From Sanchytrium tribonematis (Eukaryota), in contig JADGIG010000018.1 of the NCBI GenBank assembly GCA_018985235.1, forward strand, positions 1-47,148: a stretch of DNA of 47,148 nt, read 5' to 3'. The stretch's first letter is position 1, and every line of letters starts with the position of its first letter. Made by a program: the position numbers and the translations under genes. Below are positions 10,444 to 43,785 of the stretch, piece by piece. The notes beneath the pieces were generated by a model. The model was not told where the DNA came from and did no database searches. It was given only the letters and a program-made list of their open reading frames with translations.

Positions 10444-12094
10444 TCACATTCTAAATAGCCCAAATTTGGTGTCTTTTTTGGATTCTGCAATACAGACATC
10501 GAGCGCTACACTTAGCACTTTTCTTGTATCTTGAGGTCTAATGATTCCATCATCCCACAATCTGGCAGAGGAGTAATAAGGATGTCCTTCTTTTTCGTAT
10601 TTCTCTACGATGGGTTTTTTAAATTGAATCTCATCCTCCGCGGACCAGTTTTCGCCTTTTTTAGTCTTGGTATCTTTGGTAATCTGGCTGAGGACTCCTA
10701 AATAAAATAAAACTACCAGCTGCTTGTTCCCCACCCATTACACTGATTCGAGAATTTGGCCACATGAACAAAAACCTTGGCGAGAATGCTCTGCCACACA
10801 TTCCATAGTTTCCCGCTCCGAATGATCCGCCACATAAAACAGTAATTTTAGGAACATTAGTAGTACTAACAGCTGTTACCATTTTTGCGCCATGTTTAGC
10901 TATTCCCTCCGCCTCGGCCTTAGATCCTACCATAAACCCTGTAATGTTTTGCAGAAAAATTAAAGGAATATTTCTCTGCGCACAAAGTTCAATAAAGTGA
11001 GCCCCTTTCATAGCAGACTCTGCAAATAAAATTCCGTTATTAGCAACTATGCCAATAGGAACTCCATTTAGATGAGCAAATCCTGTTATTAAAGAAGTTC
11101 CATACTTAGCTTTGAATTCGTGTAATTTTGAACCGTCGACAAGTCTAGCAATAATTTCGTACATATCAAATTGTTTACGAAGATTGGAACCCACAATTCC
11201 TGGAATTTCTTCAGCAGAATACAAAGGATCTACTGGAGCTTTCAATAACAATTGAGTTTCTTTCTTCCAATTTAGATGATCAACTATATTACGACCGATA
11301 TCCAATGCATGTTCATCGTTTATAGCATAATGGTCAGTTACACCTGAAACCTTGCAATGCAGATCGGCCCCACCAAGGTCTTCCGCGGATATGATTTCTC
11401 CAGTAGCTGCTTTAACTAATGGTGGGCCTCCAAGAAATACTGTTCCTTGGTTTTTGACAATTACGTTTTCGTCCGACATAGCTGGCACGTAAGCACCACC
11501 AGCTGTACAGCTTCCTAACACAATTGCTATCTGTGGAATATTTTTTGAGCTCATATTTGCTTGATTAAAGAATATTCTTCCAAAGTGCTCACGATCAGGA
11601 AATACTTCTGCCTGATTGGGTAAATTTGCACCACCACTATCAACTAGATAAATACAAGGTAAACGATTTTCCAGAGCTATCTCTTGAGCACGAAGATGTT
11701 TTTTGACAGTTATTGGATAATAAGTTCCTCCCTTGACTGTAGGATCGTTGCATACAATCATGCAATATTTGTTTTTGATTTTGCCTATTCCGGTAATTAT
11801 TCCACCGCAATTGATATCTTCCTTATACAATTTATGACCAGCAAATTGTCCTATTTCTAAAAAAGGGCTATTAAGGTCGAGTAATTTGCTTATTCTTTCT
11901 CTTGGCAAGAGCTTTCCTCTTTTAACATGTCGATCTCTTGCTTCTTTTGAACCCCCTAAAGAAATGGCTGCTGTCTTAATTTGTAGATCTTTTAATATGG
12001 GTTCCATACTTTTCAAATTTTCTTTGAACAGAACTTCCGAAGAATCTATTTTAGTTTGCAAAACATTAAATTTTCTTTGCAAAAATCTACGCAT
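10444..12094 (-). CDS. MCCC2: 3-methylcrotonyl-CoA carboxylase beta subunit; 2 exons (12094-10717, 10697-10444), 543 aa
   Basis: [63 protein letters not shown]; 19-nt intron restores GEQAAG-VL. Confidence 0.95.
10698..10716 (-). other. 19-nt spliceosomal intron
   Basis: GTAGTTTTATTTTATTTAG; removal gives the conserved [10 protein letters not shown]. Confidence 0.92.
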
Positions 12095-12166
12095 GTTACA
12101 AAAATTCAACTTTAACCCAATATTTATTGAACAGCTTCATTTTCTCAAGTAGATTTTGAGAAACAT

Positions 12167-12874
12167 TTAATAAGTTCTTCGAGGTCTGCATTTAAATTTT
12201 GGTGATTGCGATGGTACTCTCTCTGGCAAATTTTGAGAGATTGGGGCAACTCGACGTCTGCATTTCTGCTTGCTTGGGACAGGGTTTGAAATGGTTTTTT
12301 CCTCGTGATTATCAGACTGTGTCTGATCAATCATCTGGTGCAAAGTTTGTGAAGGATCAGAAAATTTTCCCACAACTTTCGATATAGCATTTTGCAATGA
12401 GATTGAAGGAGATGGTGAGCTCGATTTCTGGGAGACATCCTTCTTATTTGTGTATTCGCTGTACCCAAAATCTTGTGTCCAGTACTGCACTCCTGAAGCG
12501 GAAGTTGCGTATCCAAGTCCCACCTGATTGCTATTCTCTGAAATCAAATTTTGAAAGTGACCTGGTGAGGCAATCCAACCTTTAACCACCGATATGACAT
12601 CCGAGTATCCTTCACCTACATTTTCGGCAGTTGCTCTACCTGGGTATCTTGCAGAGTGAATACGATCCTCAAATGTTGTAGAATCTACGCTATGTCCCAT
12701 TGTATTCCTTGAAGCCTGTACTTCAGAGTACTTCTGAGCCGAATCATTTAGTTCCGAACTCAAAGTAAGAGGTTTTCTCCCAAGGCCTTCCCTGAGCTTG
12801 TTTACCATTGAGAGCATAGTGTTGAAGTTCTGCATGTTCAATGCAAATGCTGTGAATAGAGAATGAAGTATCAT
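12167..12874 (-). CDS. Probably secreted CAP/SCP-domain protein with S/P-rich tail
   Basis: Hydrophobic N-terminus; VNKLR, MGH, AENVG, WIASPGHFQNL, VGLGY, YWTQDFG (YkwD-like CAP). Confidence 0.88.
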   Translation of the reverse strand: MILHSLFTAFALNMQNFNTMLSMVNKLREGLGRKPLTLSSELNDSAQKYSEVQASRNTMGHSVDSTTFEDRIHSARYPGRATAENVGEGYSDVISVVKGWIASPGHFQNLISENSNQVGLGYATSASGVQYWTQDFGYSEYTNKKDVSQKSSSPSPSISLQNAISKVVGKFSDPSQTLHQMIDQTQSDNHEEKTISNPVPSKQKCRRRVAPISQNLPERVPSQSPKFKCRPRRTY

Positions 12875-13007
12875 TTGGATTAAGGAATCACTACAACTTT
12901 AAGAATTTTTTTGTTCCTAATATTTTACTTTGATTGGTTTAAGATACTGGTTTCAGAACAATTAGCCCTAGCGCGAATAAATTCGATGAAAGAAATTTGA
13001 AATTCTT

Positions 13008-13913
13008 TTATTTCATAAGATGGACTTTAAAAAAGTCAGACCAGCTCTGGTAGAAATTAGGTTGGAAAGACAATTCGTTGTGAGTTCCCATAGGAAAATA
13101 ATGAAACCAAACGTTTGAGTTTAAAATTGTTTTACCAGACTTATGCCACTTACTTCCATCAAAAACTCCATTTTTCGGGTCTTCAAGTTGCGCTCCACTC
13201 AATTTTTCGTAAAGCATTTTCATGTGGAGAGGAGGAATAATTTCATCCTTTCCAGAACTCATAAACAGAGTTGGTATTGGAGGAAGTTGCTTCACAACAT
13301 TTAAAGAGTTCCAGGACTGGACACAAAGATATTTGAAAGGAGCAAGACGAGGTAAAATATAAGGCACAACATCAGGCATTGATGTAAAAGTATTTTCTAT
13401 TATTAAAGCGTCTATCGATTTAAACTTTGATGCGACATGTATTGCTGCAGCTCCACCTAGAGATTGACCCGCGATGACAATTTTGTAGTTTTTAAATTTT
13501 TCTTTGGCAAACAAATAAACTGCTTCAGCATCTAACTTCAGCCCCGATTCACTAGCACTTCCTTCCGATATACCATATCCACGATAATCAAATATTAAAA
13601 AGTGAACAGGTACAAGTTTCTGAATGTCACTAATCAATGGAAGGCGATGACCCATATTGCCTGCATTACCATGCATCCATATCACAACTATCGGCTCTTG
13701 ACCATATAAATGATATGCACTTATTTTGGTTTTATCTAGGCTAGTAATATAAATCAATCTGCCATTCAAATTAAAATCACTAGGCTTCCATAATTTGTCT
13801 TTGTCTCTGGATCCTTCAGGAATAAATGATGGATAGATCACATACAATTGAATTCTGTAGAATAAATATGCGGCCATAATTGGGATGGCATATTTGAAAG
13901 CAATCCAGAACAT
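13008..13913 (-). CDS. Bem46/ABHD13-family alpha/beta hydrolase
   Basis: N-terminal TM, HGNAGNMGHR, DYRGYGISEG, GQSLGGA, IENTFTS, DEIIP. Confidence 0.9.
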   Translation of the reverse strand: MFWIAFKYAIPIMAAYLFYRIQLYVIYPSFIPEGSRDKDKLWKPSDFNLNGRLIYITSLDKTKISAYHLYGQEPIVVIWMHGNAGNMGHRLPLISDIQKLVPVHFLIFDYRGYGISEGSASESGLKLDAEAVYLFAKEKFKNYKIVIAGQSLGGAAAIHVASKFKSIDALIIENTFTSMPDVVPYILPRLAPFKYLCVQSWNSLNVVKQLPPIPTLFMSSGKDEIIPPLHMKMLYEKLSGAQLEDPKNGVFDGSKWHKSGKTILNSNVWFHYFPMGTHNELSFQPNFYQSWSDFFKVHLMK

Positions 13914-14101
13914 TGAATTTTGGTATTTGTTTTAAAAGGGACAAATTTTAATTTAATGGTTATTAATTGAAGTGCCGTGTATTCATTCACTTCAGGATGG
14001 AGTGGAACTTGAAAAGCTTGTAAATTTACAGAAATGACAGATTGATTTTGCAGATTTTACGATAAAAGGAGATTAGACCAGCTTTTTCTTCAAACAACCA
14101 A

Positions 14102-16388
14102 ATGAGTTCATCTGATCACCCAAATTCTTTAAGTGCAAATCGCCTTAGGACATACTCAATCCGGCATATTAAGACCCCATCCGTTCAACTTCATAGAAAA
14201 GGTAGCCATGATTCGCAAAGAAAGAAATTTTTTGTAGATGTAGAGTCCACTATTCAATTGCTATTAGAGCAGGAGGACACAGATAAGAATTACCAAATCA
14301 ATGTTCAGGATGAGGGTCCGAAAACTTTTAACCTGGTTGGACCTGGGCTAAAAACTCATAGCGTCAAAGGGCACTATGTGCTATCAAATTTGTTACAAGA
14401 ATTGACTTTAGCCAGAGAATATCACCGAAAACATATAATTTTGGATGAAGAGCGTCTCTATGAAAATCCTGTAGAGCGACTTTCAAGAATGATCCGAACT
14501 TTATTTTGGGATGGATTGACAAGAAGAATAGACGGAGAATCTTTGGAAAATATATGCAATGACCCCAAAGATAGACTTGGTGATCACAAGAATAGAATTT
14601 ATGTTCCATTTGATGACATAGATGCTTTGGAATATTTTCAAGGAGTTCAAAACGAGAAACCGCATTTGAAGTTAGAGGTAGAAAGGCTTCCGAAAGATAT
14701 CACACCACAATTTGTTAAAAGCATTAATCTGAAACCCGGTATTCTTGCTTTGAAGCTAGACAAGCTGAGTTTTATTAATGATGAAGGTCAGATCATTTCT
14801 AAAGTTGTGGGGACACCATTTGTTGTTCCTGGTGGTCGCTTTAATGAGATGTATGGTTGGGATTCCTACTTTGAGGCACTAGGACTTTTAGTTGATAACA
14901 AAGTTGACTTAGCCAAGGCTATGGTTGACAACTTTTGCTACGAAATTCAACATTATGGTAAAATTATGAATGCCAATCGCTCTTATTATTTAACTAGAAG
15001 TCAGCCCCCATTTTTAACAGACATGGCAATCCAAGTTTATTATCATTTACCGCAGGCCAATTCTGAAGAAAATAGAAAGTGGCTGAGACATGCGCTATTT
15101 TTTGCAATTAAAGAATATTATACAGTTTGGATGGCAACACCTCGATTCGACCCGGAATCTGGTCTCAGCTGTTATCACCCCACCGGTATAAAGTTGCCAC
15201 CAGAAACAGAAAGTTCTCACTTCAATCACATCTTGGAACCATATGCCAAAAAGCATGGTATAGGTTTACAAGAGTTCACAGAAAAATACATGTCCGACGA
15301 GATTTTAGAACCTGAGCTAGATCAATATTTCACACACGATAGAGCAGTGCGCGAAAGTGGGCACGACACGACGTATAGATTAGAAAAAGTTTGTGCACAT
15401 CTGGCAACTATTGATTTGAATAGCTTACTATTTAGATATGAGGTCGATATTGCGATGATGATTCAGCAGGAATTTAACGGAAAATTTGAGATTCCTATAG
15501 AATGGGTTCAAGCTAGCTGTTTTGCGACAGACAATCTAGATAAACACAAAACATTGATCTCTGAATCGGCACAAACTTGGTTCACCAGAGCAGAAAAACG
15601 TAAAGAAAGAATTGACAAGTATCTTTGGAATGAAGAAAAAGGTCTCTTTTATGATTATAATGTTGTGTTGAAAGCGCCTTCGCAATACAATTCCTGCACA
15701 ACATTTTGGCCTCTGTGGGCTGGTCTTGCGACAGAACAACAAGCAAAAATCATGATAGAAAAAGCTCTGCCTTTATTCGAGGTTACTGGTGGCTTAGTGA
15801 GTGGAACGGAGCAAAGCAGAGGTCTCATTTCACTTTCTAGACCAAATAGACAATGGGATTGGCCTTATGGGTATTTGAAACTAATATAGTTGGGCACCAC
15901 ATCAAATTTTAGCATGGCAAGGACTTGAGAGGTACGGGTATAATGATATTGCTAGAAGATTGGCTTATAGATGGCTTTACACCATTACCAAGAGTTTCGT
16001 CGATTATAGTGGGGTAGTACCTGAAAAGTTTGATATTGTTAATATGACTCATTTGGTGAAAGTAGAGTATGGCAATGTGGGCGTAGATTTTAAATATATG
16101 CCAAAAGAAGGGTTTGGTTGGATGAATGCATCTTATCAAGTTGGGCTGACATATTTAACAAAATTTATGAGGCGAGCTTTAGGTGCATTATCAGAACCAG
16201 ATTATCTTTTTAATGTTATGAACGATTCTTCCAAATGGCAAGAGCAGGATTCTATTGCACAGCAAAAAGGGAGTTTCGATAATTTACAACAATTGTTTGC
16301 ACCATTCGGAAAATCGGTAAGAGTAGTGAGTGAAGAAAGTTTGCTTGATGAGACTTTGTCAACTGAGGGTGCAAAGTTTTTTATCTAA
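14102..16388 (+). CDS. NTH1: Neutral trehalase (GH37); 2 exons (14102-15870, 15890-16388), 755 aa
   Basis: EDTDKNYQI Ca-binding region, VVPGGRFNEMYGWDSYF, RSQPPFL, RESGHD, EGFGWMNASY; intron removal restores QWDWPYGWAPHQ. Confidence 0.95.
15871..15889 (+). other. 19-nt spliceosomal intron
   Basis: GTATTTGAAACTAATATAG with CTAAT branch-like motif; restores PYG-WAPHQ. Confidence 0.93.
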
Positions 16389-16426
16389 GTGTGACTCTAA
16401 GTAAATCGCGTTACATGTTAAATTTA

Positions 16427-17518: not shown

Positions 17519-17835
17519 TTAAATAAATTATACTGTCAGTTTGGTCTATATCGTTGATAAATATTAATTGTAAGCGAATAGAATAAGATTCAGTGTTTGA
17601 TTGGGTAAAAATACTGGGCAATGAAGTTGTATCTTATTCATGTCAATGTAAGATACCACGAGAAATAAATGCTCTTAATCACTCTAACTAGATTTAATCC
17701 GTCAAATGTTAAACAAGCGCCGATGCTAAAATCAATCTCTTCAATCTGCCGAAATACATATCACTAGCCAGTTCTCTGTTTACTAAGTAAAAAAATCTCT
17801 CTAAAAGATTATTCTGGACTGAACTGTGTAAACGC

Positions 17836-21108: not shown

Positions 21109-21948
21109 TTAATCATCTAAACCCAACTTATCAAAGTCCAATTCTACATCGAGTCGTTTTCGATCTTGGCGAGTTTTTTCTGCTTCTTCCCTCATTTTCT
21201 TGTATTTCTCAAAATCTTTTTTAGATTCGTTGATTTTGTCTATTAAGGATCCAACTTCTCCTTTTAGAGACGATCCACAAGCTGCCACCAATACTTTGTA
21301 AAAATCTTCCAGCATCAATGCCATACTTTGAGCCAAATCCGTAGCGTAACTACCGTGATCCTCATATTCATTTAAATGTGACATAAACTCGTCGTAATCA
21401 GACATCCATAGCAACAATTTGCTAGTATCCATTTCATCAGACTTATTTAAGTACAATACGAAAGGGAGTTGCGACTTGTACATAATCGAACAAGCATAAA
21501 CTAAATTGGACATAAAAGATACCGGGTTATTACATTTGACAGAATCCACGACGTAAACAATAGTGACTTTAAATTGTGATGCCAATGTTTCCATAATGAT
21601 TTGACCACTCGCCGACCATGTAAAAGCTTCAATTTGTCCAGGAGTGTCAACGACAACGTATTTGGGATTTCTTTTTTTAATTAGTTCTATTACATCATGA
21701 AATTTAGTAGCAAATAAATTTAGCGCTGTCATAATAGCACCATTCGGCCCCAAGGAATAATCTTTCATAAGTTGGTCATAGTCAATTGTATCTCTTATGT
21801 CAATATTTGCTGTATATGCGAGATGCAGTACGGCTGGATCCAGATTTACAGTGTACGGGTCCATCTTCTGTAAGGCTTTAATTGTAGCTGATTTACCAGC
21901 TGCTGCCATTCCTATGAGTATAATTACATGAGTGTCTTCAATTGCCAT
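21109..21948 (-). CDS. NPA3: GPN-loop GTPase Npa3/GPN1
   Basis: GMAAAGKS, NLDPAV, IDIRDT, LGPNGAIMTALNLF, DTPGQIEAFTWSASG; ATG at 21948. Confidence 0.92.
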   Translation of the reverse strand: MAIEDTHVIILIGMAAAGKSATIKALQKMDPYTVNLDPAVLHLAYTANIDIRDTIDYDQLMKDYSLGPNGAIMTALNLFATKFHDVIELIKKRNPKYVVVDTPGQIEAFTWSASGQIIMETLASQFKVTIVYVVDSVKCNNPVSFMSNLVYACSIMYKSQLPFVLYLNKSDEMDTSKLLLWMSDYDEFMSHLNEYEDHGSYATDLAQSMALMLEDFYKVLVAACGSSLKGEVGSLIDKINESKKDFEKYKKMREEAEKTRQDRKRLDVELDFDKLGLDD

Positions 21949-21985
21949 CTCAATATTGTGTAACAGGGATAATCCGAAATTCAAA

Positions 21986-22804
21986 ATGCCACAGGATTTT
22001 AAGGTTAACCAAGACATTTTTATTACTCAAAGAGGAGGGAAAATTCAACTAGAACCTATTAAAGCATATGCTAGGGGCTCATTCGAGTATCCCATGCAGC
22101 CAATTTTATTAGATAATAATTTAGCAGCAGTCCAAGACACATTTTTATATGAAATTCAGGACAGACATTTGTTATTGTCGAAAAAATTAGGCGTATTCCA
22201 AGCTGAATTTGAAAAATGGACTGCTGAAAAGCAATTGATGATTAAATTGTACAATGAAGAAAAGGATCGTTATAATTCACACAAGGAAAAGTTTACAAAG
22301 TTTATAGAGGAGAACAGAGTCAAAATGAAGAGGTCACAGAGGAAAGCAGAAGAGGAAATTAAAACGAGGATCGAAACAGAGGCTAAGATTAAGGAACTCC
22401 AAGGAGAAATTCAACATAGTAGCCTAGAAATGGAAAAATTAGTCGCAGATTGCAAAAGTAAGAAAGACCTTGAAATCATTTTGGAAAATACTATTAAACA
22501 CGATACAAAAAGCACATGCTATAGAGTTTCAACTTGGATTAGTCACGCAGAATCTCTGTTGGAACAACATTGTAGTATAAAAAATACTGTCAGCGATTCT
22601 AGATATGATGGTGAAATAGACAAAAATCCAGAAAGCAAACGGCCCAGTGATTCCAAGATTGATATCGGCTTTGAAGAGAATCCTACTTCGAGCCTCGAAA
22701 CAAGTCAAATTAAATTGTGCATAGAAACGTTGTGCAATACTTTACATTGCAAATCAGAGTACCTGCATTATGTTATTAAAGATTTTGCCGATACAGTTCA
22801 ATAA
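21986..22804 (+). CDS. DUF4200 coiled-coil protein (CFAP73/CFAP100/CCDC42-like)
   Basis: KFTKFIEENRVKMKRSQRKAEEE...EAKIKEL matches the DUF4200 pattern; AAAATG start at 21986. Confidence 0.65.
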   Translation: MPQDFKVNQDIFITQRGGKIQLEPIKAYARGSFEYPMQPILLDNNLAAVQDTFLYEIQDRHLLLSKKLGVFQAEFEKWTAEKQLMIKLYNEEKDRYNSHKEKFTKFIEENRVKMKRSQRKAEEEIKTRIETEAKIKELQGEIQHSSLEMEKLVADCKSKKDLEIILENTIKHDTKSTCYRVSTWISHAESLLEQHCSIKNTVSDSRYDGEIDKNPESKRPSDSKIDIGFEENPTSSLETSQIKLCIETLCNTLHCKSEYLHYVIKDFADTVQ

Positions 22805-23587: not shown

Positions 23588-25478
23588 TTATTGTGGTCGT
23601 CTATATGGTTGCTGCATACCAGGTTGAGGATAATAATAACCTCCAAGTTGCATATTGGGCATCTGTTGATTCATCTGAGGTGGCATTTGTTGTGGCATAC
23701 CGGGGGACATACTTGGTTGCTGCTGCATTTGCGGCCTAACCTGACCCTGCATTTGTTGTGGTTGCATTTGCTGCATTTGACCTTGTATTTGTTGTTGGGG
23801 TATTTGCTGCATCTGACCTTGCATCGGTTGTTGTATTTGGTTTGGCATCATTTGATATGGTGGCATCATTCCATAGGGAGGCCTAAATTGTCCCATGTTT
23901 GGCCTCTGGGGCATATACATACCAGGCTGATACATGCCCATCATATTTGGCCTAAAATTACCAGTCATTTGTGGTCTTTGAAATTGGTTTGCATATTGAG
24001 GATTTGTACCCCGCATGCTAGGACTCCCCATGGGCTGAGCATACATTAATGGAGAATTCTGTGGCTGTTGTTGTGGAGTATTTGATGGTTGAGAAGGGTT
24101 CATTTGTTGTTGTGATTGAGCTTGATTAGCAATCGCTTGGGGAGGTTGATGTTGAACTTGCGGTTGCTGCTGTTGTGGCTGTTGTTGTTGTTGTTGTTGT
24201 TGTTGTTGCTGCTGTTGCAATGGTGCTTGTGAAGATGCTTGTTGCATTGGCTGCTGTGACATTGGCTGAGGAACTTGACCTGGAGGAGGATTTTGTTGAG
24301 TTTGAGCATAGGATGGACTAGCATAGCCTAGGCATTGTAGAATATCTTGTGGAAATTGAGTTTTTATCATAACTAATCCCAGCAGTCTATTGTTATTCAT
24401 AAATATACAGAATCCGTGAAAATTATCTACATTCTTAACAACCGCTACCTTTCTTTGCTCTTGAAGATTTCGTCTAATATTTTCAAATTGAGGAGTATTT
24501 TGGTGGTCTTCGAAGGAAACTATAGGAATATGATTTGTCTGAACATATCCTTGTAAAGTGTGTATGTTGACTGTAAAAAGACCGAAAATATTAAGACTTG
24601 GAGGCCACTGAGCGCAATTACTAAATTAAAATGAAATACAATTGAGCTGGGTCGTGCTTTGAAATTGGAGTAGCAATGACAGACGATACAATATCATTCA
24701 GTTGGATTTGGCCAGTCCACAATGGGGAAGTAGGAGCAAAAGATGGCTGCATTTCGGGAGACTGATGTTCACTCAAGGCATTGGGTCCAGGATAGTAGTC
24801 TTGTGGTTGCGGTATCATCATACCCGGAGCCATATGCATATTTTGGTGTATAGGCATTCCCATAGCACCCATCATGTTCCCGTTTGCCACATTAAGAGTT
24901 GGGTCGCCATATGTAACAGAAGCGGGAATTCCACCGTTGCCTTGAGATAGTGATGGAATTTCATTTACAAATAATTTGTCCATAATAACAGTATAGTTAG
25001 GATTGCTTAATTTCCAGCCATTTGTACTTAGTTCTTCAATAGGTTTGAGTCCCTTTTTACATAAAATTGATAAACTTATAGTCTCCTCCATCATTTTTTC
25101 CAACAGAGTTTCCATGCTTGTTATATTTTCGTCATTAGTTGGCTTTGAGAAACCATCTGAAAATAATGTATTTGTAATAACAATAATATGTCTCTGTCCG
25201 ACCAAATTTTTTAAACTGTTGTAGGCTAAGAATAGTGCATCCATTAAAGGATTTGCCATCGGACTCAAATGGTCAAATTGAATTTCCGCAATTTCTTTTA
25301 AGGAATCTGCTAGCGAGGCTCTGGACCTGACTTTGGCACTTCCGACGTGGTACGTCACAAGAAGACATGGCAGATTCATATTAATTTCTGCTGTGCTAAG
25401 GATATTATTTAAAATAGGGAGTGTTGTCGTCTTTACATTTCGATTGGCTATTGATTGATCCAAAACGAGGCAGATCAT
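23588..25478 (-). CDS. Med25-like Mediator subunit (VWA + ACID/PTOV-like + Q/P/M-rich tail); 2 exons (25478-24640, 24620-23588), 623 aa
   Basis: A 19-nt intron joins two track ORFs through an open 24620-24401 segment; QRHIIVITN and ISLSILCKK resemble the Med25 VWA; LWTGQI...WPPSLNI resembles the ACID domain. Confidence 0.65.
24164..24217 (-). repeat. CAA/CAG trinucleotide tract encoding poly-Gln
   Basis: (TTG)n/(CTG)n on the + strand, encoding QQQQQQQQQQQQQPQQQQ. Confidence 0.9.
24621..24639 (-). other. 19-nt spliceosomal intron
   Basis: GTATTTCATTTTAATTTAG; removal gives DPAQF-NCAQWPP and an open frame to 23588. Confidence 0.88.
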
Positions 25479-25543: not shown

Positions 25544-26864
25544 TTAACGGAGCAAACGCGTTGGATTTGTAGATTTTGAATGCTGGAACACTTTCCAGCA
25601 CTTGAGTCTTCCATCTGCAGCGGCTGTGCAAACAGTTTCGTTGTCTGGGCCAAGTGCAGCATAAAGCACTCGACTTGTATGTGCTTGAAACGCAAATAAT
25701 TGCTTCAGAGAAACTGAAGAATGTTCAAATAATCCAAAATTTGACAAAGATTCTGAACTATTGTCAGAGTATTTCCACACATGCATCATATTTTGAGAAT
25801 ATCCATGCGTAGAACATATTTCAGAGGTGCTTTTCGACCATAGAATATTACACACTTGTGAAGATGTGTCTATATTGACAAGCAATGCATTTTGGGCAGT
25901 ATCCCAAATTTTTAAACATTTGTCCGCTGTTCCACCACCTGTAGCCAATATAGACGGCTACGTGAATATAAAATACCTTGTTAGGTGACCATGAAACCGC
26001 CTTGACAGCCGCATTGTGTTCATGAACACCCACGGGCTGACTAGGATGCCTTAAATCCCATACCATAAACACATTGTCATTCCCACCTGATGCCAAATAG
26101 TTGCCTGTACTGTTGAACGCAAGTCCACAAATTTCTTGTTTGTGTTTCTCAAATTTTAGTATAGGGCTTTTATCGTTGCTGTTAATATCATAAACGTAAA
26201 CATTTTTGTCTCTACATCCAGCGGCTAACACGCTTTCTGATTTCCAATCAAGACATCCGATTCGTTGAGACAATTTTGCTATTAAATTACCTCCAGAAGA
26301 AACGCCGCTGGAAAGGTCTTTATATTCTAATTTTCCTTGATGAGTTCCTATACCCATTATTGATCCGGTGGGATTATATCGCATACTAGTTATGTGATCA
26401 TTTTCTAGGGAATAAAACTTGTAATTTAGATCATTTCCAGGATTCAATATATATAAATTACTACTTAGACCAATTCCAATCAGTCCTTGTGGAGACCAAT
26501 CTAGTACATTAAGATAGTAATCATCCATGATGTCTTCTAGTTGGTATTGCTTTATAGGAACTTTTGAGTGCCTCAATCTGTCTATTATAACATCTTTTTT
26601 TATTTCAAGAGTTGGTGGTTGTCTAATAAACTTTTTACTTGTAACTGACTTTGATTTTAAATGATTTCTTGGAAATAAAACGCTAGAATATATAGATTTG
26701 TTTAATCTACTGGGTATCATTCTGTCTTTGGTAGGCGTTACGAAAGAATCCTTTCGGAATTCGTCTTCATCGTCTTCTATTCTTCTTTTCTTCTTGACTG
26801 GGGTTTTAAACACATCTTGATGCTCTGGAGGGCGATTATTTCTCTTTGGGGTTGAAGCAGACAT
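25544..26864 (-). CDS. APC/C activator of the Cdc20/Cdh1 (Fizzy) WD40 family; 2 exons (26864-25977, 25957-25544), 433 aa
   Basis: C-box DRMIPSR, DDYYLNVLDWS, HKQEICGL, LASGGNDN, AAVKAVSWSP, LATGGGTAD, HTSRVLY, LR tail. Confidence 0.93.
25958..25976 (-). other. 19-nt spliceosomal intron
   Basis: GTATTTTATATTCACGTAG; restores WSPNK-PSILATGGG. Confidence 0.92.
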
Positions 26865-29310: not shown

Positions 29311-29733
29311 ATGAAGTGGTATGACGACTCCGCTGCTCCTCTGGAACCACCAAAAGATAGCGAACCTGCAAGAATTCAACCGCAAACAATATACAGAACA
29401 AATTACGGAAAAAAGATACACGCTGAAGACCTCCGAAACGAGCCGAAAGAGCCAATTGCATTTAAAAATTTTGTCTCCGTCACTACTGACAATCCGGGTT
29501 TTCATTCAAAAAAACGCAAAAAAGACACCGTTCTCAGAGTGGATGATCCTATGTATCATCAATTGAAGAAGCAGTCTAGAATCCCTTCATATTCAGGTGA
29601 ATTCCCAGCTAATAGATTTCTACAATCTCCTGGATATAGATGGGATGGCGTCGACAGATCAAATGGATTTGAAGAAAGATATCTGACTATACAATCAGAC
29701 GAAAAAGTAACAACCTACAAAGATGAATTATAA
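29311..29733 (+). CDS. BUD13: RES complex splicing factor Bud13/Cwc26, very short (140 aa)
   Basis: [29 protein letters not shown]-terminal signature. Confidence 0.88.
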
Positions 29734-31385: not shown

Positions 31386-32348
31386 TTATAAAAAATATTG
31401 TCCAGCAGTCTTCTGCTGTGGTATTTTAGACTGGTCCATTGCGACAGCATTAAATAAACCAAATGAATCATCCTCTACCCTAAGATTTTCACCTACTTTA
31501 AGATATGATGCAACATTTCCACATCTATAACAATAATTTGGTGCAGACCAGACAGTGACGCAATTTCTGTCCAAAAAATGAAACTTGTAGCCGTCCTGTA
31601 CTAATTGGTGCGCTCTGCAAATAACAGTTAGATCATTCACAAAATTAAATTCGTTAGTTACTCGGGATCCAAAGAGGTAGCCAGCACCTCTTGGAGATAT
31701 CGACCAGCCTTCTATATCATCTGGGTCACTCCACATAAGGTCACAAAAAGTACCTAGATGTGGAATTTCATGATGTCTTCTAATTGTCCGTATTTGATCC
31801 AAGGTTCTTACATCAGGACTTAGACCACCATGAACACACATAATCCTTCCATCCACAATAGCTCCTAAGGCCAAATGATCAAAGACTTGGCAACAAAGTC
31901 TCCAAACAACTGCAGACTAAATCAATAAATATGTACTCCATATTTTTGCAAGCATTCATCATAAAATCCATAGACTTCCGTGATCTTTCTGCTTTCATGG
32001 TTTCCTCTTAATAATAAAATATGCTGAGGGTACATGACTTTGTACAACATTAATAATGTGAAAGTTTCTATTGAATGGTAACCTCGATCAACAAAATCTC
32101 CCATGAATACATACTTTGTGGCAGGCAACTCTCCCGATCGCTTAAATAATTCCAGGACATCGTAAAATTGACCATGTACTAAGTAAATTCAATATACCAT
32201 CTCCACAAATTGTGACAGGTGCACTTATCGGTTGAACATTACTTTCTTCAAGTAATATAGATATACATAGCTGTGTTAAATGCTTTATTTCATGTTCTGG
32301 AAGTAATTTGCCTTCTTCAAGGATCGCAACGCTTTTTTTAAAGTCCAT
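31386..32348 (-). CDS. SIT4: PP2A-like Ser/Thr phosphatase catalytic subunit, PP6/Sit4 type; 3 exons (32348-32198, 32178-31937, 31916-31386), 307 aa
   Basis: After splicing: [48 protein letters not shown]-terminal YFL. Confidence 0.85.
31917..31936 (-). other. 20-nt spliceosomal intron
   Basis: GTACATATTTATTGATTTAG; restores [18 protein letters not shown]. Confidence 0.92.
32179..32197 (-). other. 19-nt spliceosomal intron
   Basis: GTATATTGAATTTACTTAG; restores the invariant metal-binding motif GD-VHGQ. Confidence 0.95.
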
Positions 32349-32880: not shown

Positions 32881-34515
32881 ATGACTGAAATATCAACATC
32901 TGCAACTGTTGTAGGAGTTCTTGGAGGCGGTCAACTCGGTCGTATGATGCTAGAAGCAGCTAACAGATTAAACATTAAGCTGCTATTTCTAGATAGTGTA
33001 GATTCACCAGTAGCAAAAGTTTCTAAAAATTTGGTAGAAGGGTCATTTAAAAACAAAGACGATGTCAAAAAATTGGCAAGCCAATGTGACTTATTGACCA
33101 TAGAAATCGAACATGTCGAAGTAGAAGCACTCAAGAAATTAAATGTTCAACCGAGGGTTGAAACAATAGAATTGATACAAAACAAGTTTACTCAAAAAAC
33201 ATTCTTTTCGTCTAGAGTTCCTTGTCCCAGATTGATGGAAATTAATGACACAAAAGATCTTGAAAAGGCTTCAAATATGTTTGGTTTACCTTTGATGTTG
33301 AAACGAAAGTATAACTCCTATGATGGAAAAGGTAATTTTGTAGTCAGAAATGCATCAGATTTTGAAAAATCTTTAAAGGATTTGGGCAATGAAGTTTTTG
33401 CTGAAAAATGGTGCGACTTCGAAAGAGAGCTATCGGTTCTAGTCGTCAAATCTGAGAATGAGTTAAAGACTTATCCAGTGGTGCAAACCCACCATCGGGA
33501 CTCAATATGTCATACAGTAATCGTTCCTGCTCCTGTTAGTGGTGATATACAAGAAAGAGCCACTAAGGTTGCCGAGACAGCTGTGGCATTGCTTTCAGGC
33601 TACGGCATTTTCGCGGTAGAATTATTTCAACAAAGGGATGGCAGTATTTTATTGAACGAAATTGCACCAAGACCACACAATTCTGGACATTTAACGATAG
33701 AAGCCTGTGAGACATCCCAATTCGAAAATCACTTGAGAGCCATTTTAAATTTACCACTTGGTTCGACTGCTCTGAAAGTACCAAATGCAGCGATGGTAAA
33801 TATAATTGGGGCGTCTAATAACGTTGACTGTATTATGAGCCCGGTCAAGCAGGCACTCTCCATAGAAGGATCAAGTATTCATCTTTATGGAAAAGCAGAA
33901 TGCAGAAAGGGTCGCAAAATGGGACATATTACTATTACTGCAAACAATAAGCCTCAACTTTTACAAAGACTGCAGCCTCTTTGGGATAGTGTCGGAGGTT
34001 CACCTTTAAAATCAAATAATTCCCCACTAATTGGTGTCATTATGGGCAGTGATTCAGATTTGCCAAAAATGAAAGATTGCTGTGAGATTTTAGAGCAATT
34101 CAATGTTCCTTTCGAAGTGACCATAGTCTCTGCTCATAGGACTCCCGAAAGGCTTAGCCAATATGCTCGAACCGCTTACGAGAGAGGCTTAAAAGTCATA
34201 ATAGCAGCTGCTGGAGGAGCAGCTCATTTGCCAGGAATGGTTGCCAGTATGACGTGTCTTCCTGTAGTTGGAGTGCCAATTGCATTAAAACATTTGGATG
34301 GAGTAGATAGCTTACATTCCATAGTACAAATGCCCCGTGGTGTTCCTGTTGCTACTGTCGCCATTGACAATGCTACCAACGCAGCCCTATTAGCAGTCAG
34401 AATTTTAGGAGGTGATTACTCTTCACAAATGACAGTATATCAAACAAACATGAAAAATGTTGTTTTAGAAAAGGCAAAGCAACTTGAATTGAAAGGATGG
34501 TCTTCATTCTTATAG
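32881..34515 (+). CDS. ADE2: Phosphoribosylaminoimidazole carboxylase (PurK-PurE fusion)
   Basis: [64 protein letters not shown]. Confidence 0.97.
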
Positions 34516-35154
34516 TAAATTTTCGTCCTCCAAGCTGCAAACGAGGTATCTGATCCTTTCCAAGCATTCATTTAATGGTCCTGTATTTTTAATTACAATG
34601 TTAGCCAAATTCTTTTTCTTTTCAATTGACATTTGCACATCGACTCTTTTTAGCATTTCTTCTTCATCTTCCGTTAAGTTCGAAATTTCTGTGACCTTTG
34701 CTTTTCTCATTCTTGATAAAAGTCTCAGCTTTTGAGTTTCTTTATCAACATAAACAACCCAAATTTGATTTGCATATGTATTCAAGTGTGATTCAAATAG
34801 TAGCGGGATGTCAAAGAAAACGTATTTATGCCCCAAAATCGCTAAATAAATGTACTGCCAAAACATAGTCCAAATTACAAACGGATGAGTTATTCGGTTC
34901 AAAGTCTTTCTTTTGGACTCGTTATTAAATACAAGACTTGCTAATTTGCCACGGCTAACCTGGTTCCCGTCAAAAACTTGATTGCCGAAAAAAATCCAAA
35001 CTAAATAGTAAGATAAATGATATTTGTGGAACAGCTTTCTAGCTATTTCGTCTGCGTCAATAATTTTACAGCCCTGCTCTTTGAGATAGTTTGTAACTGT
35101 AGTTTTTCCCGTGGCAATTCCACCAGCAATTGCGATTCTGAAAGGTAATGGCAT
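34510..35154 (-). CDS. CAB5: Dephospho-CoA kinase
   Basis: [32 protein letters not shown]. Confidence 0.93.
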
Positions 35155-35194: not shown

Positions 35195-37121
35195 ATGCAG
35201 CAGCCAAGATTATTTCAATCTTTCAACAGAAACAAAAGCAGCACACAAAAGAAACTTTTGACTCCATTATTTCAACCACAACAACTTCCAGATTTTAGTG
35301 AGGATGAAAAACCAGTCAAGCCCCTTAACAATATTACGAACATTGCCAATTCACCTTCACTGAAGGCTAGATTCAAGAATAATATTAATGAATCGAGCCA
35401 GCTGAAGAGAGAATTCAAACCTAGACAAGATTATGACAGTTTCCAACTTAGCGAGAACGACTCGATGTTTAATTTTGAGCATTCAGCCCAAATTAAGCAT
35501 CGCGCTGAAAATGAAATCGCTCGAACTCCTCCAACCAAGGAGAGGAAACCGCAGCCTTATCCTACTCCTGATGAAAACAATTTGTTCGACTTTTTCAACC
35601 ACATGAAGTCTCTGATGGAAAAGAAAACCCAACTAGAATCAGAAAAAAAAGATTTGAAAAATATTGTCGAAACGCAGGGAAATGATTTGGAACAGCTGAG
35701 AAAAATTGAAGCTAAGTCTGTTGAGTTTATTAACGAATTTCAAAATAACAAACAATTTATTGAGACAAGACTTGGAGAGATAGAGAAATTTTCTCAATAT
35801 ATGGCAACTACAGTTAAAAACTTAAAAGTTTCGTCTGACGCAGCGTTATTAAAAAGAAATGAGTTTGAAATTGCTAACAAACAATCGATTGAAAAAATGC
35901 AGAATGATTTGGAAGAAAAGAACATATCACTGTCAAACACAATTCTTATAAACCAAAAATTGATAGAAGAGAAAAATACCTTGTCTATCAAAGTCGCATC
36001 GTTAGAGGACAAAATCAATGCGGAAGCTTTGGTCTTTGTCGACTTTAAAGCTAATTTTTGCGAATTGCAGGATAAGCACCAAAAATTGGAGATAGAATTA
36101 ATCGATAAAAAGTCTAAAGAAAAAAACGTGAGTCAACTTTTGCAACTTCATGAAGATGAAATTGTTAGCCTTAAAGCGGAAAACAAAAAACTGAGACTTT
36201 ATGTTAAAGATTTGGAAACGGCAAACTTAGTAGTGCTTAATGAAAAAGCAAAACTTGAAGATTCTGCCAGAAATTGTGATGCTAGTCTTTTCGAGTTAAA
36301 AGAATCCTTAGGGAAAGCAGAAAATGATCTGGAAATAGCTGGGATTAACTTTAACGAGTTAAATATTAGATATGCTGCTCTCTCCTCAACCAGCAAATCT
36401 TTAGAAAACAAAATTAAAGACTTGGAAATGAATGGCGCAGATGCGAAGAAACTGACTGATAAATTTGAAATATTATACTTGTCTATATTAAAATTGAACG
36501 AGGAAAAGCAATCATTGATGACATGTATTGCATCCATGGAAAAATCTCAAGCCGAAATTTCCACTGAACTGAGAAAAAAAGGCGAATTTAAAACTGGCGA
36601 ATCTATTGAAAAACACTCTCGGTACCTTTTTCTAATGTAGCCAAGAGCAGGATTTAAAAAAATACAAAGATATTTTAAGCTCTATTTGCGTTCTGTTAAA
36701 TACCGATGATGTTGATACAGTAATTCAGTCTGTAAGAAAACTAACAAACGATGTTGTTAATCTAGAAATTTCCTTTGAGCATTTGAAAAGGGAATATGAA
36801 GCAGTTTTAAACTCTGAGCTGAAATGCAAAACGAGAGTTGAAAATTTGCAAAAAGAGAATCAAGAAAAAAATACCTTAGTTTTTGATTTAAATAGCAGAT
36901 TGGAACGATCGCAAATTGAGAATAAGGATCTCTTGAAAGACATCAACAAACAGAAGGAATCGATTCAATTATTACAAATTGAGGCAAGAAATAAACAAGA
37001 ACGAAACAGGAATCAACTTGATACCCCAAAACCTCGAAAAAGAAGTTCAACTGGGCTAAATTCTACCCAAAAGAAAAAACAAAAGTCTGTCAGATTAGAG
37101 TCTGACGTTGTATTTTATTAG
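35195..37121 (+). CDS. Long coiled-coil protein; 2 exons (35195-36621, 36641-37121), 635 aa
   Basis: Heptad-rich E/K/L sequence; a 19-nt intron joins the two track ORFs in frame; basic NLS-like C-terminus. Confidence 0.75.
36622..36640 (+). other. 19-nt spliceosomal intron
   Basis: GTACCTTTTTCTAATGTAG with CTAAT; removal gives HSR-QEQDLKK and an open frame to 37121. Confidence 0.88.
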
Positions 37122-37134
37122 TAAATCAAACATT

Positions 37135-37644: not shown

Positions 37645-37836
37645 TTTTAAGTTTCAAAAATTTATTTTGTCCGCAAATATATCAATTTGACTTGTCAAAT
37701 GGCTCGAAGTTTTGCTCATCGACCAATTTCTCACAGAACTGGGTCGTCTGATTGTTACTTCATCTAATATCGTTTTGCCTGTTAATTGGTCTGATTGGTA
37801 TTAAAAAGTCAGACCCCGTTTTCACAGTTCTCACGT

Positions 37837-38433: not shown

Positions 38434-38450
38434 TAAATTTTATGGACTAT

Positions 38451-40961: not shown

Positions 40962-41161
40962 TACAAGGAGAAGTTGGCAAATAACAAGATATGGAATTAG
41001 AAGATATTTCTATTCCCCCAAGAAATATACATGGCTATCGACTCATTAAAATTTTGATCAAAAACTTATTCAAAAAAATCTTAACATTTTGAGAATTTTC
41101 TTTATCTCAGCCATAACTTCTTTGTACTGTAATTCAATTTTGGTAGACTCGGTTTTTTGTG

Positions 41162-41797
41162 ATGTATAAACATTTATTTTCAAATAGGCCTGAAATGTTT
41201 TCACCAAAAGATTCGAAATTTAATATTCATGAAAAAGTCTATAGAAAGAAAACTGTCGTAGTGGGTGAGGGAGAATGTGGAAAAACTTCTCTTCTATCTG
41301 CCTACGTGAATGATAAATTTCCAGAAGAATATGTTCCAACGGTTTTTGAAAACTACTCCAAACAATTAAAGTTCGGGAAAAAGACAGTAGAGTTACATCT
41401 ATGGTAAATCAAGTATTAATTTAGGGACACTGCTGGTCAGGAAGATTTTGACAGATTAAGGCCTTTAAGTTACGCCGATGCAAATTGTGTCTTGGTATGT
41501 TTTAGTGTTAACAGCAAGTTAAGTTACGATTTAATTGCAGACAGATGGATCCCAGAAGTTCAGCATTTCATAGATTGCCCTATATTACTGGTGGGACTCA
41601 AAAGCGATTTGAGAAATGAAGATGTTGATTGTGTTTTGGAGCACGACGCCAGACTTTTAGCCGATAGACTAGGCTTAGCTGGATATATGGAATGTTCTGC
41701 TAAAACGATGGAAAATGTAAATGCAATTTTCAACAATGCCGCATACTTGTGTATGAAAAAGAAAGGCATTATGACTAGAATCTGCAAAACCTTATAA
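41162..41797 (+). CDS. Rho-family GTPase (Rho4-like); 2 exons (41162-41403, 41425-41797); alternative start 41195
   Basis: [58 protein letters not shown]. Confidence 0.93.
41404..41424 (+). other. 21-nt spliceosomal intron containing an in-frame stop
   Basis: GTAAATCAAGTATTAATTTAG; restores the invariant LW-DTAGQE. Confidence 0.95.
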
Positions 41798-41838
41798 TAA
41801 ATTAATTAGTTCTCATTTGCCAAGGGGCACTATTCAAA

Positions 41839-42465
41839 ATGGCGCAAATAAAATTATACTCGTATTGGAGATCCAGTTGCTCTTACCGAGTGAGAATAGT
41901 GCTTGGTTTAAAAGGCATAGACTATGATTATATTCCAATTAATCTTATCAAAGCAGAACAAAATTCAGAGGAAAACTTAAATCGAAATCCTATGGGCCTC
42001 GTTCCTACTCTCGAAGTTGACGGCGTACATATATCTCAGAGTATGGCAATTATGGAATATCTTGAGGAAAATTACAAATCAGTAATGCTTTTCCCTCAAG
42101 ATTCCATCGGGAGAGCAATAGTTAGAGGAATGTGTATGATTATAGTTGCTGACACTCAGCCTTTACAAAATTTGAAAGTTCTCAAGACATTTGAAGATCC
42201 AAAAAGAAAAGAATGGGCAATCAAGGTTATTTCTGATGGATTATTTGCTTTTGAAAAAATGGCCAAAAAATACAGCGGAAAATATTCTTATGGATCTACG
42301 GTAACCATCGCTGATGCTTGTTTAGTTCCACAAGTCTACAATGCGAAACGCTTTGAAATCGAGATGGACAAATTTCCAACAATTTCGATAATAATGGCAC
42401 ATCTTGAGGATTTGGAAGGAGTTCAGAAAGCCCATCCTCAACACATGATTGATGCCGTTCAATAA
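41839..42465 (+). CDS. Maleylacetoacetate isomerase / GST zeta
   Basis: LYSYWRSSCSYRVRI, NPMGLVP, QSMAIMEYL, QPLQNL, ADACLVPQVYNA.RF. Confidence 0.95.
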   Translation: MAQIKLYSYWRSSCSYRVRIVLGLKGIDYDYIPINLIKAEQNSEENLNRNPMGLVPTLEVDGVHISQSMAIMEYLEENYKSVMLFPQDSIGRAIVRGMCMIIVADTQPLQNLKVLKTFEDPKRKEWAIKVISDGLFAFEKMAKKYSGKYSYGSTVTIADACLVPQVYNAKRFEIEMDKFPTISIIMAHLEDLEGVQKAHPQHMIDAVQ

Positions 42466-42509
42466 ACCCAATACAAACTTTTTAAAAATCTTTCACACAA
42501 AGGGAGGTA

Positions 42510-43785
42510 ATGGATAGAACCGGCATTCCGAAGAAGAGACGAAAGGTGACCAAAGCATGTGTTTATTGCCGAAGGAGTCATCTAACATGCGACGATGGGC
42601 GGCCTTGTCAAAGATGTATAAAAAGAGGGATAGCTGGTCTGTGTAAGGATGAGCCAAGTAGTAAAACAAACAACAATAACAATAAGCAACCTCCAAATCA
42701 ATTCTATCCAAGCCTTCAATTCAATGCTATCAACACTCAAAACGAAGCCAACTTTTTTGGGCAACCCGGACAAGTAGATTTTGATGTCCCATTATTTGCG
42801 AAACCACAAACCACCACAATGGCATCCCCGAATATTCCAGACCTGCCCTTGATAAACCCATTTGAGTCACCTATAGCTATGATGCAAAATATCAATCCTT
42901 TCTTACCGCAACAAGTAGAACCTGCCAATTTTTCCCAAAGTGCTAAACAATTAAATCAATCTCAACCTCAACCTCAGCCAAACATTCAAATCAAAGTTCC
43001 AGAGCAAACGAAAGCCATGAGTCCTTTGCAGCAAAGTATCCAGTTGCAAGGAAGTCCTATAGTAATCAAGTCAGTTATCCCAGATCAGACCTTTATTAAT
43101 ACAAATTCCAAAAATGTAAAATCCCCAGAAGAATGTGTTGAGATAAGCGCAGATCCATACAGCGCTCTCCCAACATTAGGTTTAAGACAAATTATTCAGG
43201 CAAAATTTGAGGCTGGCCTTCTAAAGCCTTTTAACTATGCTCAATCCTATCACGAACTGCTCTCACATATGAAAAACTTTTCCGACAAAAATAGATCCAG
43301 AGTCCTGCTCTGCATATCCAAATTTAGGCCTTACTTCAGAGAAATTTCGGGAGCTCAAAATGATGTGGACCTCATTTTAGTAGAGGAAAAATTCGAGAAA
43401 CTACTAATAGAGTACGATAGAGTACTTTCGTGTATGGGGATGCCGGCGGCGTGTTGGTAATTTAAATTTAAGTAGGAGAAGAACTGGAGAGATATATAAA
43501 GCTAACCGACAATTCTGCCACTTGGTTGGTAAGACTAGAAATGAATTATTAAAAATGAAGATATTTGAACTAATGAACGAAGAGAGTTGCGTGAATTATT
43601 GGGAAAGGTATTCCGCAATTGCTTTTGATTCTGGCCAGAAAGCAGTTCTCACTGCTTGTGTCACATCTGGTCCAAACCCTATTAATTGCAGTTTTGGATT
43701 TACAGTAAGAAGGGATCAAAATTTGGTACCTATATTAATTATAGGCAATTTATTGCCTACGGATTCGACATTGATGCAATATTAA
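42510..43785 (+). CDS. Zn(II)2Cys6 transcription factor with PAS-like C-terminus, AcuM/Rds2 type; 2 exons (42510-43456, 43476-43785), 418 aa
   Basis: CVYCRRSHLTCDDGRPCQRCIKR...LC, AGLLKPFNY, W-RRTGEIY, YWE..IAFD.GQKAVLTAC. Confidence 0.9.
43457..43475 (+). other. 19-nt spliceosomal intron
   Basis: GTAATTTAAATTTAAGTAG; restores the conserved CW-RRTGEIYKAN. Confidence 0.92.

What the first reader, a model, noticed from the sequence alone, without database searches (positions are those of the whole stretch)
10698..43475. Invariant 3' signature T-N-A-N-N-TAG: branch A fixed at -6
Seen: aligned on their 3' ends, all ten introns (including 6956-6975) have T at -8, A at -6 and TAG at the end: TAATTTAG, TTATTTAG, TAATATAG, TAATTTAG, TCACGTAG, TGATTTAG, TTACTTAG, TAATGTAG, TAATTTAG, TAAGTAG preceded by T. 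Nine of ten start GTA and donor conservation ends after +3. Known: TNA is the core of the U2 branch motif, and Stentor tiny introns also have a conserved A about 6 nt from the 3' end. Inference: branch site and acceptor form one fused element with no polypyrimidine tract, giving a lariat loop of only 14-16 nt. This suggests ruler-like recognition and a modified spliceosome, convergent with ciliates.
Basis: partly seen in the sequence, partly recalled or inferred. Interest (0 to 1): 0.82.

Follow-up and report, generated by a model that had tools for sequence, protein, structure and literature searches.

The report
19-base introns in sanchytrid fungi
DNA from a fungus closely related to the algal parasite Amoeboradix holds ten predicted introns only 19-21 bases long, shorter than any fungal intron I found reported, each with an A six bases from its end that is likely the branch point; this layout is known from the ciliate Stentor, and the public gene models miss these introns.

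Summary
Confirmed and extended. All ten candidates are GT…TAG, 19-21 nt, with T at -8 and A at -6. For the five whose ends homology fixes, shuffling gives P≈0.002. The fuller signal is Y-T-N-A-Y-N-TAG, the ordinary U2 branch motif set directly against the acceptor.

The organism is a sanchytrid-lineage fungus (nearest named relative Amoeboradix gromovi, 81-91% identical). An unnamed relative's unspliced Cdc20 read-through implies a 19-nt intron with A at -6.

The geometry is not new: Stentor (15-16 nt) and Yarrowia (long introns) also put the A at -6. New here: the lineage; a size below Encephalitozoon's 22 nt; public proteomes that hold the genes unspliced; and an A. gromovi annotation with U2AF, SF1, Prp8 and Prp16/17/22 but no Slu7 or Prp18, as in Stentor. 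Yeast does not need those two at this spacing.

No RNA reads or branch mapping were available. The scan noted 25-32-nt Rozella introns before, nothing on sanchytrids.

The parts
6956..6975 (-). 20-nt intron candidate after the histone fold of an NF-YC/Hap5-like gene; predicted branch A at 6961; the only GTT donor; weakest of the ten
   Evidence: ORF joining only; Pfam histone fold in the upstream piece, nothing significant in the downstream piece
10698..10716 (-). 19-nt intron in methylcrotonyl-CoA carboxylase beta; predicted branch A at 10703
   Evidence: spliced protein has no gap at the junction against six homologues; two relative proteins break at the same codon; shifted alternative scores 255 vs 256
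15871..15889 (+). 19-nt intron in neutral trehalase; predicted branch A at 15884
   Evidence: best GT-AG excision, 279.5 vs 246; the intronless A. gromovi orthologue runs straight through the site
24621..24639 (-). 19-nt intron candidate in a Med25-like gene; predicted branch A at 24626
   Evidence: ORF joining; weak Med25_VWA hit in the upstream piece, E=0.04; likeness of the downstream piece to a Med25 ACID domain is recalled, untested
25958..25976 (-). 19-nt intron in Cdc20/Fizzy; predicted branch A at 25963
   Evidence: Pfam PF24807 positions 5-189 and 190-292 abut exactly; a relative has a 19-nt intron at the same site
31917..31936 (-). 20-nt second intron of PP6/Sit4 phosphatase; predicted branch A at 31922
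   Evidence: no gap at the junction against seven homologues; top-scoring excision
32179..32197 (-). 19-nt first intron of PP6/Sit4 phosphatase; predicted branch A at 32184
36622..36640 (+). 19-nt intron candidate in a coiled-coil protein gene; predicted branch A at 36635
   Evidence: ORF joining only; the downstream ORF piece has no Met of its own
41404..41424 (+). 21-nt intron in a Rho GTPase; in-frame stop directly at the donor; predicted branch A at 41419
   Evidence: Pfam Ras positions 1-53 and 54-157 abut
43457..43475 (+). 19-nt intron in an Ert1/AcuK-type Zn2Cys6-PAS factor; predicted branch A at 43470; competing AGs at -3, +3, +6
   Evidence: Zn cluster upstream, PAS_13 starting at profile position 6-7 at the junction; AG list; exact acceptor rests partly on a recalled family motif
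29311..29733 (+). Bud13 (RES complex splicing factor), only 140 aa
   Evidence: Pfam PF09736 E=4.8e-19; length

Best explanation
These are likely genuine major-spliceosome introns of a sanchytrid-lineage fungus, shrunk to 19-21 bases, in which the A at -6 is predicted to be the branch point and the TAG just behind it would be reached without any search. Shown by sequence and homology: lengths, ends, the Y-T-N-A-Y-N-TAG tail, and restored proteins for seven of ten. Inferred: U1 and then U6 read a minimal GTA-N-N-T donor; U2 pairs with the Y-T-N-A-Y block and bulges the -6 A; branching closes a 14-16-nt lariat; the acceptor G lies 5 nt past the branch A, close enough to dock without Slu7 and Prp18, which may therefore have been lost. 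Extra length is taken up between donor and branch site, so the fixed measure is branch-to-AG, with about 14 nt as the minimum donor-to-branch distance. About 0.85 for real introns with a -6 branch A; about 0.45 for the Slu7/Prp18-free second step.
For: Homology alone, with no GT-AG rule, ranks 19- or 20-nt excisions first in 4 of 4 tested junctions; Pfam halves abut for Cdc20 and Rho. Invariant T-8/A-6 beyond composition. The -6 register pairs best or equal-best with the U2 GUAGUA motif among the A positions near the 3' end. A tracks the 3' end in 2 informative longer introns. In the Ert1 intron an AG directly after the A is predicted to be skipped. Relative P0381: read-through implies 19 nt (10 of 11 exon residues recovered) and, at that length, forces C-9, A-7, A-6, Y-5, T-3. 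A. gromovi annotation has U2AF1, U2AF2, SF1, SF3B1, Prp8, Brr2, U1-70K, Luc7, Cwc22, Cwc25, Yju2, Isy1, Bud13, Prp16, Prp17, Prp22 but no Slu7 or Prp18 row. Stentor's table also lists Slu7 and Prp18 as not found. Yeast does not need them at short branch-to-3'SS distances.
Against: No RNA reads, no snRNA and no whole genome were available. Ten introns from one window; three lack homology support. A at -7 in 5 of 10, and in the Ert1 intron an A at -5 pairs about as well. A 21-nt GTT…TAG span with a full branch motif lies in conserved MCCB coding sequence (11644-11664) and cannot be routinely spliced, so the tail alone is not sufficient. The Slu7/Prp18 gap is in a relative's automatic annotation, where only about half the proteins are annotated and intron-split small proteins drop out (U1C, SF3B6, Prp39 and Smu1 are also missing). 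Cyanidioschyzon lacks Slu7/Prp18 although its branch distances are long, so the loss need not follow from spacing.
Confidence: 0.7

Rival explanations
1. Acceptor-first recognition: U2AF1 binds the TAG and, with SF1, places U2 at a fixed distance upstream, so the AG fixes the branch site and not the reverse.
For: U2AF1, U2AF2 and SF1 are annotated in A. gromovi; TAG in 10 of 10; an 18-nt look-alike ending CAG in a conserved CoaE motif is evidently not spliced (35052-35069).
Against: No tract for U2AF2 between branch and AG; TAG is expected in AT-rich introns; the look-alike is also explained by being under the 19-nt minimum.
Confidence: 0.2
2. No ruler at all: the introns have eroded to the physical minimum (14 nt donor-to-branch plus 5 nt branch-to-end), so the A looks fixed only because nothing shorter splices.
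For: 7 of 10 are exactly 19 nt and none is shorter; the erosion-to-threshold model is proposed for mikrocytids (PMC10245619).
Against: In all 3 longer introns the extra bases lie on the donor side (2 informative); Yarrowia keeps the same spacing in long introns.
Confidence: 0.2
3. The -8 T and -6 A are a protein-bound extended acceptor motif (like nematode TTTCAG) or a by-product of selection for stop codons; the true branch A lies elsewhere or varies.
For: The -8..-6 triplet is TAA or TGA in 6 of 10 and is the first in-frame stop on retention in both 20-nt introns; retention ends within 6 codons in 7 of 10.
Against: The triplet is out of frame in 5 of 10 and is a sense codon in both phase-1 introns, yet T-N-A holds (sequence); flanking pyrimidines at -9 and -5 complete the U2 branch consensus.
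Confidence: 0.08
4. Assembly or amplification artefacts, or pseudogene insertions, rather than introns.
For: No transcript evidence was obtained.
Against: Clean GT…TAG ends at homology-defined sites in essential genes; independent relatives break at the same codon in Cdc20 and MCCB.
Confidence: 0.02

Closest known systems
Tiny introns of heterotrich ciliates (Stentor coeruleus; PMC9505925 passages, PMC13685798 passages and section 8)
   Same: GTA donor, AT-rich interior, A at -6, TAG end, narrow length; density 0.24 per gene here against 0.26-0.50; core spliceosome largely kept; Slu7 and Prp18 not detected in Stentor or in the A. gromovi annotation
   Different: 19-21 nt, mostly 3n+1, against 15-16 nt, mostly 3n; clearer Y-T-N-A-Y motif here; lariat loop 14-16 nt against 10-11; a fungus, so independent origin
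Yarrowia lipolytica introns with fixed branch-AG distance (PMC2483917 passages)
   Same: Fungus; branch motif plus 2 nt plus AG, which puts T at -8 and A at -6; no tract
   Different: Long introns (median 204 nt), strong ACTAAC and GTGAGT consensus; here tiny, with degenerate signals (1 of 10 has ACTAA)
Encephalitozoon cuniculi introns (PMC3629993, PMC2483917 passages)
   Same: Fungal relative with short introns and a CTAAYTT-type branch motif
   Different: 22-76 nt, a few dozen per genome, strict extended donor, heavily reduced spliceosome
Fused branch-acceptor introns of Giardia, Trichomonas, Spironucleus (PMC6679479 passages)
   Same: Invariant branch-to-AG spacing; moving the motif abolished splicing in Trichomonas
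   Different: Spacing 2 nt or more longer; strong extended consensus; very few introns
Chlorarachniophyte nucleomorph (18-21 nt) and Mikrocytos (16-17 nt) introns (PMC10245619 section 7; PMC2483917 section 15)
   Same: Same size class, narrow range, GT(A) donor in the nucleomorph
   Different: Nucleomorph introns are reported to show no branch-point signature; Mikrocytos has only 17-19 spliceosomal proteins

Membership tests
U2-type spliceosomal introns | GT-AG ends | tested here: met
   10 of 10
U2-type spliceosomal introns | Removal restores a conserved protein | tested here: met
   7 of 10 by homology; 3 of 10 by ORF joining only
U2-type spliceosomal introns | Branch motif able to pair with U2 GUAGUA | tested here: met
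   Y-T-N-A in 10 of 10, Y-T-N-A-Y in 9 of 10 at -6; U2 motif taken from PMC9505925, the organism's own U2 not seen
U2-type spliceosomal introns | Excision from mRNA through a lariat at the predicted A | not testable with these tools
   no sequencing runs could be obtained
U2-type spliceosomal introns | Major spliceosome encoded in the genome | tested here: inconclusive
   Bud13 in the window; other factors only from the A. gromovi annotation table; no snRNA in the window
Heterotrich-type tiny introns | A fixed at -6 with GTA donor and TAG end | tested here: met
   10 of 10, 9 of 10, 10 of 10
Heterotrich-type tiny introns | Length 15-16 nt | tested here: not met
   19-21 nt; works alike, is a separate lineage
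Heterotrich-type tiny introns | Nearly all introns of the genome in one size class | not testable with these tools
   no genome held; true for 10 of 10 in the window
Fixed branch-AG introns of intron-poor genomes (Yarrowia, Trichomonas, Giardia) | Constant branch-to-AG distance, no tract | tested here: met
Fixed branch-AG introns of intron-poor genomes (Yarrowia, Trichomonas, Giardia) | Strong extended branch (ACTAAC) and donor consensus | tested here: not met
   positions -11, -10, -7 and +4, +5 vary; G at +5 in 0 of 10
U12-type introns | Extended conserved U12 donor (consensus recalled, not from a call) | tested here: not met
   donor columns +4 to +8 vary
Sanchytriomycota (placement of the organism) | Closest named proteins are sanchytrid | tested here: met
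   91% (PP6) and 81% (trehalase) to A. gromovi against 68-70% and 60% to the other named fungi compared; no tree was built

The most novel reading that the evidence does not exclude
Sanchytrids carry the shortest introns in Fungi, some 2,000 or more unannotated 19-21-nt introns per genome, and have converged with heterotrich ciliates on the same minimal design, including loss of the Slu7-Prp18 pair once every acceptor sat 5 nt behind the branch A. Part of the gene loss reported for this phylum would then be an artefact of calling genes without introns.
Probability: 0.4. Interest if true: 0.75.

Novelty: new member of a known kind. Interest (0 to 1): 0.6.

Why it matters
It adds an independent, fungal origin of near-minimal introns in a lineage that seems to keep most of its spliceosome. 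That allows a direct comparative test of what sets the lower size limit and whether short branch-to-AG spacing lets Slu7 and Prp18 go. In practice, the sanchytrid proteomes used in phylogenomics were called as plain ORFs on genomic contigs and hold truncated or split proteins, so presence/absence conclusions need re-checking with a gene finder that allows 19-nt introns.

Tried and rejected
No whole genome and no sequencing runs, so no genome-wide logo, snRNA search or read support. Rfam on the window: 1 chance-level match, no snRNA. Metagenome scan with trehalase: 80 loci, none above 55% identity, no close relative. Viral-contig scan with ARPC4: 5 pattern matches, 0 relatives. ESM Atlas for the Med25-like pieces did not complete. 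PDB search with a Cdc20 piece confirmed the family but gave no junction alignment. A plain ORF-joining scan gave 889 candidates and was too loose to use alone. Two papers were not held; the Yarrowia paper PMC2911113 was seen only in a search listing. Stop-codon selection as the cause of T-N-A was rejected (out of frame in 5 of 10). The MCCB relatives' stop codon falls at -8..-6 only if 19 nt is assumed, so it is consistent but not independent. Two 3'-UTR look-alikes were not counted as introns: about 2 such matches are expected by chance. Multi-word supplement searches ('second step', 'step II') may fail on tab-separated text and carry no weight.
Full report
Setting. The window is compact eukaryotic DNA, about 36% GC, with 41 protein genes by my count and a median gap of 48 bases. 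It holds fungal hallmarks (Zn2Cys6 factor, neutral trehalase, fused Ade2) and a DUF4200 protein. The 90% cluster of PP6 exon 3 contains an Amoeboradix gromovi protein; identities to A. gromovi are 91% (PP6) and 81% (trehalase), against 68-70% and 60% for the other named fungi compared. Bud13 and PP6 are consecutive ORFs on one A. gromovi contig and lie 1.7 kb apart here. I place the organism in the sanchytrid lineage; no tree was built and I did not determine species or record. No genome and no reads were available.

Are they introns? Ten stretches of 19 (7), 20 (2) and 21 (1) nt begin GT and end TAG. Spliced PP6 has no gap at either junction against seven full-length homologues; spliced MCCB and trehalase likewise. 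Trying every excision of 10-45 nt within 24 nt of the site, with no rule on ends, ranks the 19- or 20-nt length first in 4 of 4 junctions, and the proposed ends are the best GT-AG choice; for MCCB a 3-nt-shifted GT…GAG cut is nearly as good (256 vs 255). Pfam halves abut exactly for Cdc20 (189|190) and Rho (53|54). Ert1 is supported by domain continuity, its exact acceptor partly by a recalled motif. Three (6956, 24621, 36622) rest on ORF joining; 6956 is weakest, with the only GTT donor. I saw no other frame break in the Pfam-matched genes, but stop-free 3n introns would escape this check.

The signature. T at -8, A at -6 and TAG are invariant in 10 of 10; -9 is a pyrimidine in 10 of 10 and -5 in 9 of 10. 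The consensus is Y-T-N-A-Y-N-TAG, the usual U2 branch motif set against the acceptor. Shuffling interiors gives a shared T-N-A column in 0 of 100,000 trials for all ten, 5 in 100,000 for seven and P=0.0019 for the five uniquely fixed ones. Without gene models, 8 of 24 GTA…TAG spans of 19 nt carry T-8 and A-6 against a background of 8.7% (P=7e-4); seven are listed introns and one lies in a 3' UTR, about the chance rate. The -9 and -5 pyrimidines alone are weaker (P=0.011 and 0.07). On the donor side, +6 is T in 9 of 9 GTA introns, +5 is never G, and the exon ends in G in 7 of 10.

Independent support. The Cdc20 of an unnamed relative (P0381, 74% identical) was called without splicing and reads through the same site. 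Back-translating its tail, a 19-nt intron recovers 10 of 11 residues of the next exon; the only rival, 10 nt, recovers 7 of 14. At 19 nt the codons force C at -9, A at -7 and -6, a pyrimidine at -5 and T at -3; -8 is undetermined. Two relative MCCB proteins stop four codons after the same site, with a GTA donor implied; only these and the window's own of 121 MCCB proteins break there, one other ends further on. The trehalase intron is absent in A. gromovi and in one unnamed relative, and another relative breaks about 4 nt upstream, so positions are not all shared.

Mechanism. Donor-to-A distance is 14, 15 or 16 nt; A-to-end is always 5. In two of the three longer introns position 14 is not A while -6 is, so extra length sits upstream of the branch site. 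In the Ert1 intron an AG directly after the A and AGs at +3 and +6 are predicted to be passed over. Two look-alikes inside conserved coding motifs, 18 nt GTA…CAG and 21 nt GTT…TAG, cannot be routinely spliced, which suggests a minimum of 19 nt and a need for GTA; the second also counts against the 6956 candidate. Retention stops translation within 1-42 codons in 10 of 10, and the single 3n intron has a stop at its donor, in line with NMD safeguards described for ciliates (PMC13685798 section 8). Stop selection does not explain T-N-A, which is out of frame in 5 of 10. All steps about U1, U2, U6 and lariat formation are inferred from established splicing chemistry.

Spliceosome. The window encodes a 140-aa Bud13. 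The A. gromovi annotation sheet in supplement file 4 of PMC8371127 is held whole; the second species' sheet is mostly cut off and supplement file 2 could not be read. Rows exist for U2AF1, U2AF2, SF1 (as two adjacent ORFs), SF3B1, SF3B2, SF3a subunits, U1-70K, Luc7, Prp8, Brr2, Cwc22, Cwc25, Yju2, Isy1, Bud13, Prp16, Prp17, Prp22 and cactin. No row matches Slu7 or Prp18 by name or by recalled KEGG/KOG id, and none of the 23 'splic' places is either. U1C, SF3B6, Prp39 and Smu1 are also not found, and only about half the proteins are annotated, so this is a lead. Stentor's table gives the same step-2 pattern (PMC9505925). Reviews state that Slu7 is unnecessary at 9 nt or less (PMC10158995) and Slu7, Prp18 and Prp22 below 7 nt (PMC3392075). 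Against a simple rule: Cyanidioschyzon lacks the pair with long distances.

Comparison. Stentor has the A at position 10 of 15 or 11 of 16; Yarrowia has TACTAAC plus 2 nt plus AG; Giardia, Trichomonas and Spironucleus fuse branch and acceptor. The geometry is therefore known. Encephalitozoon introns are 22-76 nt (PMC3629993), myxozoan medians 22-27 nt (PMC13644364 part 1 of 3), nucleomorph 18-21 and Mikrocytos 16-17 nt. Earlier notes of this scan give 25-32 nt for Rozella (unchecked). Irimia and Roy found tiny-intron lineages without branch signatures and intron-poor lineages with strong ones; this case, 0.24 introns per gene and 0.23 per kb, lies between, like heterotrichs (0.26-0.50 per gene).

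Is it in print? The sanchytrid genome paper has no 'splic' in its main text and 'intron' only in a reference; genes were called with TransDecoder on contigs, and 'RNA-seq' does not occur. A. gromovi PP6 is deposited as a 151-aa 'complete' ORF, and 7 of 8 unspliced pieces of the window's intron genes looked up stand in the collection as such. Searches 'tiny introns'+fungi+branch, sanchytri+intron (17), Amoeboradix (32), 'shortest introns'+fungi+chytrid (57), Sanchytrium+splicing (90) and searches showed no report, judged from listings and occurrence counts; PMC10459994 and PMC8476143 were checked by passages. Subscription journals are mostly not covered. The estimate of about 2,200-2,400 introns per genome extrapolates one window to the 10.5-11.2 Mb given for sanchytrids.

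Verdict. A real feature and a new member of a known kind: tiny major-class introns with a fused branch-acceptor, in a fungal phylum where I found none described, with a testable parallel loss of Slu7 and Prp18. Interest 0.6.

Noticed in passing
window 4752-4830 (+) and about 4905-4990 (+): Two GC-richer intergenic stretches with C-box-like and D-box-like motifs, the first closed by a terminal inverted repeat: candidate box C/D snoRNA pair. No Rfam hit; fold z -0.83.
   Followed up: partly
window 15871-15889; proteins P0262, P0263, P0264, P0531: The trehalase intron is absent in A. gromovi and one unnamed relative, and another relative breaks about 4 nt upstream: recent gain, loss or sliding within the lineage.
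   Followed up: partly
window 35052-35069 (-) and 11644-11664 (-): Intron look-alikes (18 nt ending CAG; 21 nt with GTT donor) inside conserved coding motifs of CoaE and MCCB; natural negative controls for the splicing rule.
   Followed up: partly
window 4992-5010 (-) and 16397-16414 (-): Full-pattern spans of 19 and 18 nt just behind stop codons; possible 3'-UTR introns, but at the chance rate.
   Followed up: no
window 29311-29733 (+): Bud13 is only 140 aa with no room for an upstream exon; shorter than yeast and human forms (lengths recalled).
   Followed up: no
PMC8371127 supplement file 4, A. gromovi rows 1135-1136: SF1/BBP is annotated as two adjacent ORFs on one contig, as expected if it holds an unrecognised tiny intron.
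   Followed up: no
proteins P0134, P0263, P0381: Unnamed relatives of MCCB, trehalase and Cdc20 each list a longest contig of 37,994 bases, probably one contig with the same genes as this window.
   Followed up: no
window 8335-8352, 21932-22026, 34510-34515: Neighbouring genes touch or overlap at their ends; median intergenic gap 48 bases.
   Followed up: no
window 21986-22804 (+): DUF4200 coiled-coil protein (a cilia-associated family, recalled), fitting a zoosporic fungus.
   Followed up: no
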